Below, piece after piece: positions 10,553 through 13,111 of a stretch of DNA of 64,000 nt (its first letter is position 1; every line of letters starts with the position of its first letter). The notes under the pieces are model-generated. The model was given only the letters and a program-made list of their open reading frames with translations, did not search any database and had not been told where the DNA came from. Position numbers and translations under genes: made by a program. The stretch comes from Acidimicrobiia bacterium. GTDB lineage: Bacteria; Actinomycetota; Acidimicrobiia; Spongiisociales; ZC4RG35. The stretch lies in assembly GCA_965215185.1 (NCBI GenBank), contig OZ244034.1:2759844-2823843 (forward strand). Reading direction: 5' to 3'.

Positions 10553-10785
10553 GTGATCCTCACCTTCTGGGGGTGTTTCCATCTGGTAGCGAGGCTAGTT
10601 ACAAACTCCGCAAAAGGGGGTGGCATCAGGGTCCATTTCCCGCCTGGGGATAGCGGAGGGGTCTGGCTACGACCGGGGCGAATCAGAGACAAAATGGGAT
10701 CACTACCTTGAATCTTGGGTGACCACCGGCGGGTTCCGGTTGGGTGAATGGCGTTGGCGCTTGGTTCTGTAGTCTTATGGGGGTC

Positions 10786-11712
10786 ATGGCGACCATCGCC
10801 TATCCCCCCATCCCGATTTGGGAAGTCGGACCCTTGCGGTTCTCGTTGCACGGCCTTTTTGCCGCCGTGGGTTTCTTCGTGGGCTTTTGGGCGGTGGCCC
10901 GTATGTTGGAGAAGAGGGGTTTTGACCCGGCTGGCTTCCACTCTTTGGCGGTTTGGGTATTGCTGGGCGGCCTCTTGGGTGCCCGACTTCTAACTGCTCC
11001 TGCCGCTTTGCTGGATGGCGCTGGCTGGGCGGCCCTCAACCCAGTAGTCGGCAACTATTCGATAATGGGTGGATTCCTGGGCGGAATTGTGGTGGGAGTG
11101 TGGCGGATGCGGCGATTGGAATTGCCGACCCTTCCCATTTTGGATCTGGCTTCATTCGGATTGGCATGGGGAACGGTGGTGGGAAGGATCGGTGACTTGG
11201 CCATAGTCGAGCACCTGGGTCGGGCCACCGAGGTGGCGTGGGGATACGAGGTGCGGCCCGGCTACGACTTGGCCCCCCAGCACAACGGGTTGGAATGCAC
11301 CCTCCTTGAGGCCGGACCGGATGGGATCTGCGGGGTTTACCACCATGTAGCCCTATACGGCATGCTGGCCGCCGGGGCGTTGCTGGTTGTGTTATGGCTG
11401 ATCCAACGGCGGGCGCCACTGCGATATGGACAACTCTTTTCGATCTGGGTGGTGTGGTATGGCCTGCAGAGGTTTGCGTTGGACTCTCTTCGGTTCGGGA
11501 TGGGAGACGCCACCCTGGGGGGATTCACGTGGAATCAGGTGAGCGCCCTGGGTGGATCGGTGTTGGGGGTGACGCTCCTGTGGTGGTTTGGAAGACACCG
11601 GCCAATGGTTTCATCCGAAGCTGATGAGAGCTTAGGAGCAACTTGGGCGATGGCCTCCGGCGAGGATGCATCAGCAGGCGGCCATTTGCAAGAGCCGCCC
11701 ACTGGACAGTAA
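10786..11712 (+). CDS. lgt: Prolipoprotein diacylglyceryl transferase
   Basis: SLHGLF, GARL, GGFLGG, GRIGD, WYGLQRFALDSLR and TWNQ; multi-pass membrane protein. Start uncertain (10744-10786). Confidence 0.85.
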   Translation: MATIAYPPIPIWEVGPLRFSLHGLFAAVGFFVGFWAVARMLEKRGFDPAGFHSLAVWVLLGGLLGARLLTAPAALLDGAGWAALNPVVGNYSIMGGFLGGIVVGVWRMRRLELPTLPILDLASFGLAWGTVVGRIGDLAIVEHLGRATEVAWGYEVRPGYDLAPQHNGLECTLLEAGPDGICGVYHHVALYGMLAAGALLVVLWLIQRRAPLRYGQLFSIWVVWYGLQRFALDSLRFGMGDATLGGFTWNQVSALGGSVLGVTLLWWFGRHRPMVSSEADESLGATWAMASGEDASAGGHLQEPPTGQ

Positions 11713-11715
11713 TAT
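11710..11715 (+). promoter_or_regulatory. Putative -10 element (TAATAT) of a leaderless leader-peptide transcript
   Basis: TANNNT hexamer 7 nt upstream of the ATG at 11723, which has no SD. Confidence 0.5.
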
Positions 11716-11722
11716 TGCTCCG

Positions 11723-11785
11723 ATGTTGGTAGAAGAGTTCGATCGCTATTTCGTCTTTACCGGGCCCCGGCTCCGGGAGGCATAG
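11723..11785 (+). CDS. Putative Phe/Tyr-sensing leader peptide (MLVEEFDRYFVFTGPRLREA)
   Basis: 20-codon ORF with F,Y,F,F clustered in codons 6-12. It contains the antiterminator arm and precedes an aromatic biosynthesis gene. Confidence 0.65.
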   Translation: MLVEEFDRYFVFTGPRLREA

Positions 11786-11813
11786 CGCGGACCAACAACC
11801 GACGACTGACCTG

Positions 11814-11842
11814 ACCCGGAGCCCGGCTCCGGGTTTTCTTTT
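11814..11842 (+). terminator. Intrinsic terminator / attenuator hairpin
   Basis: ACCCGGAGC-CCG-GCTCCGGGT followed by TTTCTTTT. The alternative pairing arm GGCTCCGGG is at 11769-11777. Confidence 0.85.
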
Positions 11843-11879
11843 GCCCGCAGCCGCCGGTTCCCAACAACACTAAAGAGGT

Positions 11880-12947
11880 GTGGAAGTGGAGAGACAAGCA
11901 ACCAAGAAAAGCAGGTCACAGCGCACTGTGGTGCGGGTGGGGGACACCAGATTCGGACGGGACCCGTTTCCGGTCATCGCCGGTCCCTGCGCGGTGGAGA
12001 GCGAAGAGCAGATCAACACCGTGGCAGAGGCAGTGGCCGAGAATGGAGGTTCCATTCTGCGAGCCGCGGCCTACCGCTCGGGTAACTCTCCCTATAACTT
12101 CAAGGGCTTAAAGCTGGAGGGAGCAAAACTGCTGGCGGCTGCTGGAAAACGGGTGGATTTGCCGGTGGCAATGCCCATCATGGAGGAGCGCGACCTGGAA
12201 GAGTCAGGCGATTTGGTGGATATTCTGGAGATCCACCATGGGTCTATGCAGAATTTCGAGTTGTTGCGCGTCGCTGGTCGTTCCCAAAAGCCTGTGATGC
12301 TTAGACGCGGCCCATCGGCGACCATTGACGAGTTTCTGTGGTCGGTGGAATACCTGATGGCTGAGGGAAACGATCAGATCATCCTGGTCGAGCGGGGCAT
12401 CCGTACCTTTGGAACCGGCCATCGCGACACCTTGGACATCACCGCGGTCCCCCATCTGAAAGAGGTGTCACATCTCCCGGTGCTGATTGATCCCAGTCAC
12501 GCCTCTGGTGGGGCGGCGCGGGTGCCGCCTTTGGCCCTGGCTGCCCAAGGGGTGGGCTCGGATGGGCTGATCGTGGAGGTCCACCCTCAGCCGGAAGCCG
12601 CCAAAACCGAAGGACCCCGCCAATTGTCTCTCACCGAGTTCGCCGAATTGATGGTACAATTGGGCATTAGTCGGCTTCGTTCCGGCATCGATCTGGTGGA
12701 TCGGGAAATCGTCAGGCTTTTGGCCCGCAGGCGACAGCTATCCCAGGAGATCGGCCGCGCCAAGGCCGACCGTGGCTGGCCTGTGAAGAGTCACCACCGG
12801 GAGGTGGAATTGTTGGAGGCGGTGCGGGAAGAGGCCATTGTTAACCAACTCGACCCGGATCTGATAGAGAGATTGTTCAACCTGGTGCTGGAGGGTTCCC
12901 GCCGGGCTCAAAGAGATATGCGCATTGATCCGGAGGAAGGAAGGTAA
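11880..12947 (+). CDS. DAHP synthase (class I-beta)-like domain fused to a C-terminal chorismate mutase (AroQ)
   Basis: IAGPCAVES, MQNFELL, ERGIRTF, DPSH and VEVHP motifs, then LRSGIDLVDREIVRLLARR...IGRAK...RE (AroQ). Catalytic motifs are altered (see findings). Confidence 0.88.
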   Translation: MEVERQATKKSRSQRTVVRVGDTRFGRDPFPVIAGPCAVESEEQINTVAEAVAENGGSILRAAAYRSGNSPYNFKGLKLEGAKLLAAAGKRVDLPVAMPIMEERDLEESGDLVDILEIHHGSMQNFELLRVAGRSQKPVMLRRGPSATIDEFLWSVEYLMAEGNDQIILVERGIRTFGTGHRDTLDITAVPHLKEVSHLPVLIDPSHASGGAARVPPLALAAQGVGSDGLIVEVHPQPEAAKTEGPRQLSLTEFAELMVQLGISRLRSGIDLVDREIVRLLARRRQLSQEIGRAKADRGWPVKSHHREVELLEAVREEAIVNQLDPDLIERLFNLVLEGSRRAQRDMRIDPEEGR

Positions 12948-13017: not shown

Positions 13018-13090
13018 GGCCCCGTCGTCCAGCGGCCTAGGACGTCGGCCTTTCAAGCCGGTAACGCGGGTTCGAATCCCGTCGGGGCTA
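13018..13090 (+). tRNA. tRNA-Glu (TTC)
   Basis: Acceptor stem GGCCCCG/CGGGGCT, anticodon arm TCGGC-CTTTCAA-GCCGG, T-arm GGTTCGAATCC; CCA is not encoded. Confidence 0.95.
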
Positions 13091-13111
13091 CTCTCTACGC
13101 AGTTGAGATAC

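What the first reader, a model, noticed from the sequence alone, without database searches (positions are those of the whole stretch)
11710..11842. Leaderless Phe/Tyr ribosome-mediated attenuator upstream of the DAHP synthase-chorismate mutase gene
Seen: TAATAT sits 7 nt before an SD-less ATG that opens a 20-codon ORF containing FDRYFVF. The 12-mer CCCGGCTCCGGG occurs twice (11766 and 11822). The first copy (GGCTCCGGG, 11769-11777) can pair with the terminator 5' arm CCCGGAGCC (11815-11823), excluding the U-tailed terminator. A ribosome stalled on the Phe/Tyr codons would leave the arm largely free, while one at the stop would mask it. Established: this is the geometry of pheA/trp-type attenuators. 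Inference: a joint Phe/Tyr-sensing attenuator, possibly undescribed in this lineage.
Basis: partly seen in the sequence, partly recalled or inferred. Interest (0 to 1): 0.65.

Follow-up and report, generated by a model that had tools for sequence, protein, structure and literature searches.

The report
Phe/Tyr leader-peptide attenuator before chorismate mutase
A 20-codon mini-gene rich in phenylalanine and tyrosine codons, followed by competing RNA hairpins and a terminator, very probably lets the ribosome switch on the cell's only chorismate mutase gene when Phe/Tyr run short; the mechanism is textbook, but this version (conserved across an order of uncultured Acidimicrobiia) is not in Rfam or the papers searched.

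Summary
Comparison with relatives supports the interpretation.

**What is there (window 11686-11852, + strand):**
- A sigma-A-type promoter: TTGCAA, 18 nt, then TAATAT.
- An SD-less ATG 7 nt after the -10, opening the ORF MLVEEFDRYFVFTGPRLREA.
- Four RNA segments that form a 1:2 hairpin, a 2:3 antiterminator and a 3:4 terminator with a U-tract.

**Conservation:**
- A covariance model built from relatives finds the element in 228 of 401 genomes of the same order (75 of 107 genera).
- It occurs once in the window's own genome.
- All 59 distinct copies keep the promoter, a 17-24 codon ORF, a cluster of Phe/Tyr codons just 5' of segment 1, and all three helices.
- The helices show compensatory base changes.

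- The conserved 1:2 anti-antiterminator.
- The DAHP-synthase domain of the regulated gene has lost its substrate-binding motifs.
- That gene carries the genome's only chorismate mutase domain, which explains a Phe+Tyr sensor with no Trp codons.
- Same-architecture leaders elsewhere in the lineage track their targets: Phe only before pheS, a Cys run before a PLP-dependent (cysteine-synthase-like) enzyme gene, and Phe/Trp/Tyr before a canonical DAHP synthase.

**Closest known:** the C. glutamicum aroR-aroF attenuator. This is a new member of a known kind. No transcription start or termination data exist.

The parts
11686..11691 (+). -35-like hexamer TTGCAA, lying inside the 3' end of lgt
   Evidence: It sits 18 nt upstream of the -10. 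About 50 of 59 distinct relatives have TTGnnn at 17-18 nt from the -10.
11710..11715 (+). -10 hexamer TAATAT (actinobacterial TAnnnT type); it overlaps the lgt stop codon TAA
   Evidence: All 59 distinct copies have TAnnnT 6-11 nt before the leader start codon. This includes loci where the upstream gene is not lgt.
11723..11785 (+). Leader ORF MLVEEFDRYFVFTGPRLREA*, with no SD. Regulatory codons: Phe 11738-40, Tyr 11747-49, Phe 11750-52, Phe 11756-58
   Evidence: All 59 relatives keep an ORF of 17-24 codons. 58 of 59 have Tyr, 57 of 59 have at least 2 Phe, and no Trp occurs in the aromatic run.
11753..11765 (+). Segment 1, the 5' arm of the 1:2 anti-antiterminator (GUCUUUACCGGGC). It overlaps the last Phe codon plus the Thr and Gly codons. 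An outer extension CGCUAU (11744-49) pairs with AUAGCG (11782-87)
   Evidence: Fold of 11738-11795 gives -20.4 kcal/mol. RNAalifold predicts this hairpin independently. Helices 1-2 are 84-97% paired, with compensatory changes.
11769..11781 (+). Segment 2 (GGCUCCGGGAGGC). It pairs either with segment 1 or with segment 3
   Evidence: In 40 of 40 relatives examined, the best upstream partner of the terminator 5' arm is this site. In 37 of 40 it starts 11-15 nt after the first base of the last aromatic codon.
11810..11823 (+). Segment 3 (CCUGACCCGGAGCC). It is both the 3' arm of the antiterminator and the 5' arm of the terminator
   Evidence: The 2:3 fold gives -31.7 kcal/mol, z -5.2. 2:3 is 87-89% paired across 59 sequences, against 55% or less when the partner is slid.
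11826..11842 (+). Segment 4 (GCUCCGGGUU) plus the U-tract UUUUCUUUU, which together with segment 3 form the intrinsic terminator
   Evidence: Helix 3 is 98% paired, and 4 of its 9 pairs show compensatory changes.
11843..11852 (+). Segment 5 (GCCCGCAGCC), a conserved element complementary to segment 4. Its role is unknown
   Evidence: In 55 of 59 copies the best downstream partner of segment 4 lies 5-11 nt after it. The pairing is weaker in the window itself (-8.7 kcal/mol, one mismatch).
11873..12947 (+). SD AAGAGG (11873-78) and the regulated gene: a DAHP-synthase-like domain with degenerate substrate motifs, fused to a C-terminal AroQ chorismate mutase. The probable start is GTG 11886
   Evidence: Pfam finds DAHP_synth_1 and CM_2. 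The motifs read KPRT->RSGN, GARN->HHGS and LKRG->LRRG. It holds the only CM_2 hit in the genome, and there is no CM_1.

Best explanation
This is a ribosome-mediated (leader-peptide) transcription attenuator that reports the supply of charged tRNA-Phe, and probably tRNA-Tyr.

Transcription starts from its own promoter (TTGCAA, 18 nt, TAATAT), at or within a few bases of the ATG at 11723. The leader ORF is therefore translated without a Shine-Dalgarno sequence.

**When Phe/Tyr are plentiful.** The ribosome runs to the UAG at 11783 and covers segment 2 (11769-11781). Segments 3 and 4 then fold into the terminator, and RNA polymerase stops in the U-tract (11834-11842).

**When there is no translation at all.** Segment 1 pairs with segment 2, and the terminator again forms.

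**When charged tRNA-Phe or tRNA-Tyr is scarce.** The ribosome stalls on the Y-F-x-F cluster (11747-11758) and covers segment 1. Segment 2 stays free and pairs with segment 3 as soon as segment 3 is made. The terminator cannot form, and transcription reads into the gene.

**The gene.** It encodes the cell's only chorismate mutase, the branch point to Phe and Tyr, fused to a DAHP-synthase-like domain that has lost its substrate-binding residues.

**What is shown by computation:** the anatomy, its conservation, the covariation and the energetics.
**What is inferred:** the transcription start, translation of the leader, termination, and the response to Phe/Tyr.
For: **Anatomy and energetics in the window**:
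- 1:2 hairpin -20.4, 2:3 antiterminator -31.7 (z -5.2), 3:4 terminator -18.3 kcal/mol (z -3.9).
- The free transcript 11723-11842 folds as 1:2 plus 3:4, the termination conformer.

**Uniqueness.** It is the only Phe/Tyr-rich small ORF followed by a strong terminator among 49,178 small ORFs in the genome. The covariance model gives one real hit in the genome.

**Distribution.** It is present in 228 of 401 genomes and 75 of 107 genera of the order.

**Features kept in all 59 distinct copies:**
- a 17-24 codon ORF and TAnnnT 6-11 nt upstream of the start;
- TTGnnn at -35 in about 50 of 59;
- these features hold also where the upstream gene is not lgt.

**Selection acts on the amino acid, not the nucleotide**:
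- Phe/Tyr codons are 21% of frame 0, against 1.6% and 9% of the other frames. The genome-wide figures are Phe 3.1% and Tyr 2.0%.
- Both synonymous codons are used about equally.
- The aromatic residues are confined to the 7 codons ending at segment 1.

**Structure support:**
- RNAalifold finds 1:2 and 3:4 on its own; 8 of 18 pairs show compensatory changes.
- On the model alignment, 95% of cells pair against 60% or less when slid, 9 pairs show double changes, and 0 of 500 shuffles reach this.
- The antiterminator is 87-89% paired against 55% or less when slid, with U-A/C-G covariation at its outer pairs.

**Geometry**:
- Segment 2 starts 11-15 nt after the last aromatic codon in 37 of 40 copies.
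- It ends 4-21 nt before the stop codon, or overlaps it.

**Regulatory logic:**
- The gene holds the only chorismate mutase domain in the genome.
- Weaker hits of the same model elsewhere in the lineage carry Phe-only leaders before pheS, a CCCCC leader before a PLP-dependent (cysteine-synthase-like) enzyme gene, and Phe/Trp/Tyr leaders before canonical FL-domain DAHP synthases.

**Precedent.** The C. glutamicum aroR leader (Phe-Tyr-Phe) attenuates aroF.
Against: - There is no experimental evidence for the transcription start, for translation of the leader, or for termination.
- The only RNA data are low-depth metatranscriptome contigs from a close relative. They show nothing over the leader. 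Two contigs begin at 11861/11862, downstream of the terminator. That could be a processed or alternative 5' end, or an assembly break.
- In the window the 1:2 hairpin is not more stable than shuffled sequence (z -0.8).
- There are only four regulatory codons (3 Phe, 1 Tyr).
- In C. glutamicum, Tyr limitation had no effect on the analogous leader.
- Most relatives have 9-10 nt between the -10 and the start codon, so strict leaderlessness is doubtful for the family.
- One genus (loci L091, L093, L094) keeps the terminator. Two of its three leaders have lost the aromatic codon run; the third keeps scattered Phe/Trp but no cluster. L097 has no leader.
- In this family the lgt stop codon lies 11 nt before the leader ATG, so reinitiation on lgt read-through transcripts could also load ribosomes.
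Confidence: 0.85

Rival explanations
1. The hairpin with its U-tract is simply the intrinsic terminator of the upstream lgt gene. The small ORF and the 'antiterminator' are coincidental.
For: The terminator lies about 100 nt downstream of the lgt stop codon and on the same strand. It would also stop lgt read-through transcripts.
Against: The whole element travels with the chorismate mutase fusion gene even where the upstream gene is unrelated to lgt (L085, L088-090, L098-107). The promoter, the ORF, the aromatic codons and the 1:2 and 2:3 pairings are conserved with covariation. A plain terminator needs none of these.
Confidence: 0.03
2. It is a leader-peptide sensor whose output is not termination at the hairpin. 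The output could be Rho-dependent termination, translational coupling or SD masking, or arrest by the nascent peptide (conserved F-T-G-P tail) rather than by tRNA charging.
For: The C-terminal part of the peptide (FTGP...) is conserved. A conserved fifth segment follows the U-tract. Earlier notes of this scan describe terminator-less Phe leaders in other Acidimicrobiia (unverified).
Against: The conserved peptide tail is encoded by segments 1 and 2, whose nucleotides are constrained by base pairing. A canonical GC-rich stem with a U-tract is present in essentially all copies, with stem energies of -15 to -22 kcal/mol in the 40 folded. In the window the SD of the gene is not predicted to pair with the leader.
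Confidence: 0.06
3. It is a metabolite- or protein-binding RNA switch (riboswitch, T-box or similar), or a small RNA gene. The ORF would then be incidental.
For: It has alternative terminator and antiterminator structures, as riboswitches and T-boxes do. The terminated 120-nt RNA could act in trans.
Against: No Rfam family matches, not even at E = 10. There is no conserved unpaired ligand pocket or specifier/T-box motif. Between the helices, the conserved positions behave as codons: synonymous TTC/TTT and TAC/TAT exchange, Phe-Tyr exchange, and the reading frame and stop codon kept despite indels.
Confidence: 0.03

Closest known systems
Corynebacterium glutamicum aroR leader peptide / aroF (DAHP synthase) attenuator (Neshat et al. 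2014, as summarised in PMC11802643; Mentz et al. 2013, PMC4046766)
   Same: Both are in an actinobacterium. Both have a short leader peptide with a mixed Phe-Tyr-Phe motif in front of a DAHP-synthase-family gene. Both use ribosome stalling to relieve termination.
   Different: The lineage differs (class Acidimicrobiia). The target here is a type I-beta DAHPS-like domain with degenerate substrate motifs fused to chorismate mutase, not a stand-alone DAHP synthase operon. There are more aromatic codons (4-7). Sequence homology to aroR was not tested. In C. glutamicum only Phe limitation had an effect.
E. coli pheL-pheA attenuator (Rfam Phe_leader) and the pheM-pheST attenuator
   Same: All share the classical four-segment logic (1:2, 2:3, 3:4). 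pheA also encodes a chorismate mutase fusion, so the regulated step is the same. Related Acidimicrobiia leaders sit before pheS, as pheM does.
   Different: The window shows no match to any Rfam model. It has no Shine-Dalgarno sequence. It has a mixed Phe/Tyr run instead of 7 Phe. The fusion partner also differs: a DAHPS-like domain instead of prephenate dehydratase.
Leaderless or SD-less leader ORFs of Actinobacteria: mycobacterial poly-Cys attenuators (Canestrari et al., bioRxiv 10.1101/834739) and the C. glutamicum ilvB leader without a ribosome binding site (Morbach et al. 2000, cited in PMC4046766)
   Same: The sensor ORF begins at or next to the transcript 5' end, with no SD. The own genome also has such an ilvB leader (MRYIGLLLVLE, with TAATAT 6 nt before GTG). 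A relative has a CCCCC leader before a PLP-dependent (cysteine-synthase-like) enzyme gene.
   Different: A different amino acid is sensed. Here a canonical intrinsic terminator is the output. The 5' end has not been mapped.

Membership tests
Classical ribosome-mediated transcription attenuator (trp/pheA/his type) | Short leader ORF with its own start and stop codons upstream of the structural gene | tested here: met
   The ORF is 11723-11785. An ORF of 17-24 codons is kept in 59 of 59 distinct relatives.
Classical ribosome-mediated transcription attenuator (trp/pheA/his type) | Cluster of codons for the amino acid(s) made by the regulated pathway | tested here: met
   The window has 3 Phe and 1 Tyr within 7 codons. 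Across the family, Phe+Tyr are 23% of residues, against 5% genome-wide, and the enrichment is frame-specific.
Classical ribosome-mediated transcription attenuator (trp/pheA/his type) | Intrinsic terminator (GC-rich hairpin plus U-tract) between the leader ORF and the gene | tested here: met
   (-18.3 kcal/mol, z -3.9). It is conserved, with compensatory pairs.
Classical ribosome-mediated transcription attenuator (trp/pheA/his type) | Antiterminator (2:3) mutually exclusive with the terminator | tested here: met
   11769-11780 pairs with 11810-11823 at -31.7 kcal/mol, z -5.2. The same site is the best partner in 40 of 40 relatives. It is 87-89% paired against 55% or less when slid.
Classical ribosome-mediated transcription attenuator (trp/pheA/his type) | Anti-antiterminator (1:2) overlapping or abutting the regulatory codons | tested here: met
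   The 11753-11765 / 11770-11781 hairpin is predicted independently by RNAalifold and supported by covariation. In the window alone its energy is not exceptional (z -0.8).
Classical ribosome-mediated transcription attenuator (trp/pheA/his type) | Geometry: a stalled ribosome masks segment 1 and spares segment 2, while a ribosome at the stop codon masks segment 2 | tested here: met
   Segment 2 starts 11-15 nt after the last aromatic codon and ends 4-21 nt before the stop codon, or overlaps it. This was judged against a footprint of about +12 nt, taken from general knowledge.
Classical ribosome-mediated transcription attenuator (trp/pheA/his type) | Read-through rises when the cognate charged tRNA is limiting | not testable with these tools
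   The organism is uncultured. The only RNA runs are low-depth contigs.
Rfam Phe_leader and other curated leader, T-box or riboswitch families | Match to the family covariance model | tested here: not met
   A cmscan of 11000-12600 at E up to 10 gave only three chance-level hits to unrelated families.
Leaderless sensor ORFs (mycobacterial Cys attenuator type) | The transcript 5' end coincides with the start codon | tested here: inconclusive
   The -10 is conserved 6-11 nt before the start codon (7 nt in the window, 9-10 nt in most copies) and there is no SD. No 5'-end data exist.
C. glutamicum aroR-aroF attenuator | Sequence or structure homology to aroR | not tested
   The aroR sequence was not on hand. 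The model R1 gave strong hits only within the own order in a 401-genome sample of the phylum.

The most novel reading that the evidence does not exclude
Acidimicrobiia and neighbouring Actinomycetota may share one modular attenuator chassis: a promoter-proximal SD-less ORF, an ACCGGG/CCCGG 1:2 hairpin, a CCCGGAGC terminator, and a fifth segment complementary to segment 4.

On this reading the sensor codons have been swapped to suit each target:
- Phe/Tyr before the chorismate mutase fusion;
- Phe before pheS;
- Cys before a PLP-dependent (cysteine-synthase-like) enzyme gene;
- Phe/Trp/Tyr before canonical DAHP synthase.

In this genus the chassis controls a pseudo-DAHP-synthase/chorismate mutase fusion. 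The dead synthase domain may serve as a regulatory or docking domain. Segment 5 may give read-through transcripts a 4:5 hairpin that locks in the 'on' state.
Probability: 0.4. Interest if true: 0.55.

Novelty: new member of a known kind. Interest (0 to 1): 0.38.

Why it matters
This finding supplies a well-supported cis-regulatory annotation for a large group of uncultured bacteria, many of them from sponges, for which no regulation has been described. In this lineage the Phe/Tyr branch is controlled at chorismate mutase by tRNA charging. The common-pathway DAHP synthase, a separate paralogue with a ferredoxin-like domain, carries no such leader in this genome.

The covariance model built here could seed an Rfam family.

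The match between leader composition and target gene (Phe/Tyr, Phe, Cys, Phe/Trp/Tyr) is a neat natural example of sensor-codon swapping on one RNA scaffold.

It does not change how attenuation is understood.

Tried and rejected
- **Rfam scan** at permissive thresholds: only three chance-level hits to unrelated families.
- **Consensus promoter scan**: it missed the promoter, which matches 8 of 12 positions against a threshold of 9. The promoter was recovered by comparison with relatives.
- **RNA evidence:**
  - Three metatranscriptome runs hold only low-depth contigs of a close relative.
  - There is no coverage of the leader.
  - Two contigs start at 11861/11862. No -10-like hexamer precedes that point, so I treat these starts as inconclusive rather than as a transcription start.
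- **Other hits of model R1 in the own genome** (L110-L113): these are the reverse strand of the same terminator, or ordinary 3' terminators.
- **pheS in the own genome:** it has no such leader.
- **A fixed-column antiterminator structure:** it failed because the window's clade has one extra base in segment 2. I counted pairs by script in two registers instead.
- **A genome-wide scan for other amino-acid-run leaders**: mostly noise. The ilvB leader was the only convincing extra candidate.
Full report
**1. The observation**

- TAATAT lies at 11710-11715 and overlaps the TAA stop of the upstream gene. That gene is a prolipoprotein diacylglyceryl transferase (10744-11712; Pfam LGT).
- Seven bases later, with no Shine-Dalgarno sequence, an ATG at 11723 opens a 20-codon ORF, MLVEEFDRYFVFTGPRLREA, which ends at TAG 11783-11785.
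- The 12-mer CCCGGCTCCGGG occurs at 11766 and at 11822.
- GGCTCCGGG (11769-11777) is the reverse complement of CCCGGAGCC (11815-11823).

The terminator scan finds a 10-bp stem (11813-11835) followed by TTTTCTTTT.

Folding gives these energies:

| Structure | Energy (kcal/mol) | z-score |
|---|---|---|
| Terminator 3:4 | -18.3 | -3.9 |
| Antiterminator 2:3 (11769-11780 with 11810-11823) | -31.7 | -5.2 (0 of 200 shuffles as good) |
| 1:2 hairpin inside the ORF | -20.4 | -0.8 |

Its core is 11753-11765 with 11770-11781, and CGCUAU 11744-49 pairs with AUAGCG 11782-87 as an outer extension.
- The naked transcript 11723-11842 folds as 1:2 plus 3:4, which is the termination conformer.
- With more downstream sequence added, the minimum-energy fold switches to the antiterminator. 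The two states are therefore close competitors.

The arrangement is not a chance feature of a GC-rich genome.
- Among 49,178 small ORFs in the 3.12-Mb genome, 40 have at least 4 Phe/Tyr in seven residues.
- Only this one is followed by a strong terminator.

**2. Conservation**

The gene downstream encodes a DAHP_synth_1 domain plus a C-terminal CM_2 (AroQ chorismate mutase) domain.
- Fifteen close relatives (82-90% protein identity; Acidimicrobiia MAGs, several with sponge-type isolate names) all carry the same upstream element.
- More distant orthologues (46-64% identity), found in a 301-genome sample of the class, also carry it in 24 of 28 loci with enough upstream sequence.
- It is present where the upstream gene is not lgt, for example L085, L088-L090 and L098-L107.
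- A covariance model built from 28 of these sequences finds one real copy in the window's own genome.
- The model finds copies in 228 of 401 genomes of the same order, covering 75 of 107 genera.
- In a 401-genome sample of the phylum, strong hits are confined to that order.

**3. What is conserved, and how**

In all 59 distinct copies the following hold.
- There is an ORF of 17-24 codons, preceded by a TAnnnT hexamer 6-11 nt upstream of the start codon. The usual spacing is 9-10 nt; the window has 7.
- About 50 copies also have TTGnnn 17-18 nt further upstream.
- The hexamer letters vary (TAATAT, TAGAGT, TACACT, TACATT and others), but the T-A---T frame does not. That is the actinobacterial -10 consensus (my own knowledge).

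The aromatic codons are confined to the seven codons that end at segment 1.
- 58 of 59 leaders contain Tyr, and 57 of 59 contain at least two Phe.
- Trp is absent from the aromatic run.
- Phe/Tyr codons make up 21% of frame 0, against 1.6% and 9% of the other two frames.
- Genome-wide, long ORFs have 3.1% Phe and 2.0% Tyr.
- Synonymous codons are used about equally (TTC 100, TTT 86, TAT 44, TAC 40), and Phe and Tyr exchange at given positions.

That pattern is the signature of selection on the amino acid read by the ribosome, not on an RNA or DNA motif.

By contrast, the invariant nucleotides UUUACCGGG and the conserved peptide tail (F-T-G-P...) are explained by base pairing. They form the 5' arm of the 1:2 hairpin.

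**4. The helices**

- RNAalifold, run on a plain MAFFT alignment, predicts the 1:2 hairpin and the terminator by itself. Compensatory changes occur in 8 of 18 pairs.
- On the model-guided alignment of 59 distinct sequences, 95% of cells pair, against 60% or less when the 3' partner is slid.
- On the same alignment, nine pairs show changes on both sides, and no shuffle of 500 reaches the observed values.
- That alignment was fitted to the model's structure, so the slid control carries more weight than the shuffle.
- For the antiterminator I counted pairs by script in two registers, because the window's clade has one extra base. The result is 89% and 87.5% paired, against 55% or less when slid.
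- The outer antiterminator pairs covary, with U-A in 18 sequences, C-G in 7 and U-G in 2.
- In 40 of 40 sequences examined, the best upstream partner of the terminator's 5' arm is segment 2. In 37 of 40 it starts 11-15 nt after the first base of the last aromatic codon.
- Segment 2 ends 4-21 nt before the stop codon, or overlaps it.

**5. Mechanism**

These distances fit a ribosome that protects roughly 12 nt downstream of the A-site codon (general knowledge).
- A ribosome stalled on the Tyr/Phe cluster covers segment 1 and leaves segment 2 free to capture segment 3. This gives antitermination.
- A ribosome that reaches the stop codon covers segment 2. This gives termination.
- With no ribosome at all, 1:2 and 3:4 both form. 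This also gives termination.

This is the classical trp/pheA design. The steps shown here are the anatomy, the energetics, the conservation and the covariation. The transcription start, translation, termination and the physiological signal are inferred.

**6. What is regulated, and why Phe plus Tyr**

Alignment to solved DAHP synthases shows that the synthase domain has lost its phosphate-binding residues:
- KPRT(S) reads RSGN.
- GARN reads HHGS.
- LKRG reads LRRG.
- The metal-site motifs GPC, DPSH and EVHP remain.

Another first-stage note on this genome made the same observation, and I confirmed it.
- The degeneration is shared by the whole genus and, in varied forms, by most leader-bearing orthologues.
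- Only a few distant orthologues (L099, L101-L103, L153) keep canonical motifs.
- The genome has a second, canonical DAHP synthase with an N-terminal ferredoxin-like/ACT-type domain, directly followed by a tyrA-like gene. It has no leader.
- The fusion gene holds the only chorismate mutase domain detectable in the genome: one PF01817 hit and no PF07736 hit.

The attenuator therefore controls the branch-point enzyme for Phe and Tyr. This explains a leader with Phe and Tyr but no Trp.

**7. Sister elements**

Weaker hits of the same model in other families lie before other genes:

| Target gene | Example leader peptides |
|---|---|
| pheS | MQRTRFSFAFFRR..., MSTRRFLAFFVT... (Phe but almost no Tyr) |
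| PLP-dependent (cysteine-synthase-like) enzyme | MSPIAAAVCCCCCHF... |
| Canonical FL-domain DAHP synthase (other classes of the phylum) | MQRDFGFWFAYFGPGPG, MSERFGDWFFYGGPGPA (all three aromatic residues) |

- The match between leader composition and the metabolic position of the target is independent support for the amino-acid-sensing reading.
- The own genome also has an SD-less ilvB leader, MRYIGLLLVLE, with TAATAT 6 nt before its GTG and a terminator.

**8. Weak points**

- No 5'-end, Ribo-seq or Term-seq data exist.
- Three metatranscriptome runs hold only low-depth contigs from a close relative.
- None of those contigs covers the leader, and two begin at 11861/11862.
- No promoter-like hexamer precedes that point, and small structured RNAs are easily lost. 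I therefore read the contig starts as inconclusive, but they do not support the model.
- Strict leaderlessness is uncertain. The 9-10 nt spacing in most relatives suggests a 2-4 nt untranslated leader.
- In this family, ribosomes finishing lgt 11 nt upstream could also reinitiate at the leader ATG.
- One genus (L091, L093, L094) keeps the terminator. Two of its three leaders have no aromatic run; the third has scattered Phe/Trp but no cluster. L097 has no leader.
- Whether Tyr is actually sensed is open. In C. glutamicum only Phe limitation had an effect.

**9. Comparison with what is known**

- The closest system is the C. glutamicum aroR-aroF attenuator, whose leader has a Phe-Tyr-Phe motif.
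- SD-less or leaderless sensor ORFs are also known in Actinobacteria: the ilvB leader, and the mycobacterial poly-Cys ORFs.
- A 2005 comparative study found no RNA regulatory element for Phe or Tyr genes in Actinobacteria.
- Rfam 15 has no matching family.
- My paper searches found no description for Acidimicrobiia.
- Earlier agents of this scan reached the same reading for sister loci in other genomes. Those notes are not independent evidence.

**10. Verdict**

This is a new member of a known kind, with modest interest.

Noticed in passing
window 11880-12947: The 'DAHP synthase' domain of the fusion has lost its substrate-binding motifs (KPRT->RSGN, GARN->HHGS, LKRG->LRRG) but keeps the metal-site motifs. 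The degeneration is shared by the genus and, in varied forms, by most orthologues. In L104-L107 even the Cys, His and Glu metal ligands are gone. It is probably a pseudoenzyme domain attached to an active chorismate mutase.
   Followed up: partly
own genome C1:~1874400-1875300 (-), outside the window: This is a canonical DAHP synthase paralogue with an N-terminal ferredoxin-like/ACT-type domain. It is directly followed by a prephenate-dehydrogenase-like gene and has no leader peptide upstream. It is presumably the real first enzyme of the pathway.
   Followed up: partly
window 11843-11852; L-loci, just after the U-tract: A conserved fifth segment (consensus YCCCGGRGY) is complementary to terminator segment 4. 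It lies 5-11 nt after segment 4 in 55 of 59 copies and could form a 4:5 hairpin in read-through transcripts. Its role is unknown.
   Followed up: partly
L154-L159, L162, L165 (other genomes of the order): Attenuators of the same architecture, with leaders that have Phe but almost no Tyr, sit upstream of pheS. They are analogous to E. coli pheM-pheST. The window's own pheS has none.
   Followed up: partly
L160 (G524:C183): A leader peptide with five consecutive Cys codons (MSPIAAAVCCCCCHF...) plus a terminator sits upstream of a PLP-dependent, cysteine-synthase-like gene. It resembles the mycobacterial poly-Cys attenuators.
   Followed up: no
L169-L173 (other families of the phylum): Leaders containing Phe, Trp and Tyr (e.g. 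MQRDFGFWFAYFGPGPG), each followed by a terminator, sit upstream of canonical FL-domain DAHP synthases.
   Followed up: no
own genome C1:2830555 (-), about 6.7 kb beyond the window's end: An SD-less leader ORF, MRYIGLLLVLE (TAATAT 6 nt before its GTG), plus a terminator sits upstream of an acetolactate synthase large-subunit gene. It is probably an ilvB attenuator.
   Followed up: partly
window 11880 vs 11886: The fusion gene more likely starts at GTG 11886, which lies 7 nt after the SD AAGAGG and is the conserved start in relatives, than at GTG 11880.
   Followed up: partly
window 13018-13091: A tRNA-Glu (anticodon UUC) gene lies directly downstream of the fusion gene, so the regulated gene is monocistronic.
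   Followed up: no
L091, L093, L094 (one genus): Orthologous loci keep the promoter-proximal small ORF and the terminator. In two of the three the ORF has no aromatic residues (e.g. MNQLAVAGPCDSASCDSAR). The third (MSKFPVSFRSVRSFWGSGS) keeps scattered Phe/Trp but no cluster. The sensor looks decayed or repurposed.
   Followed up: no
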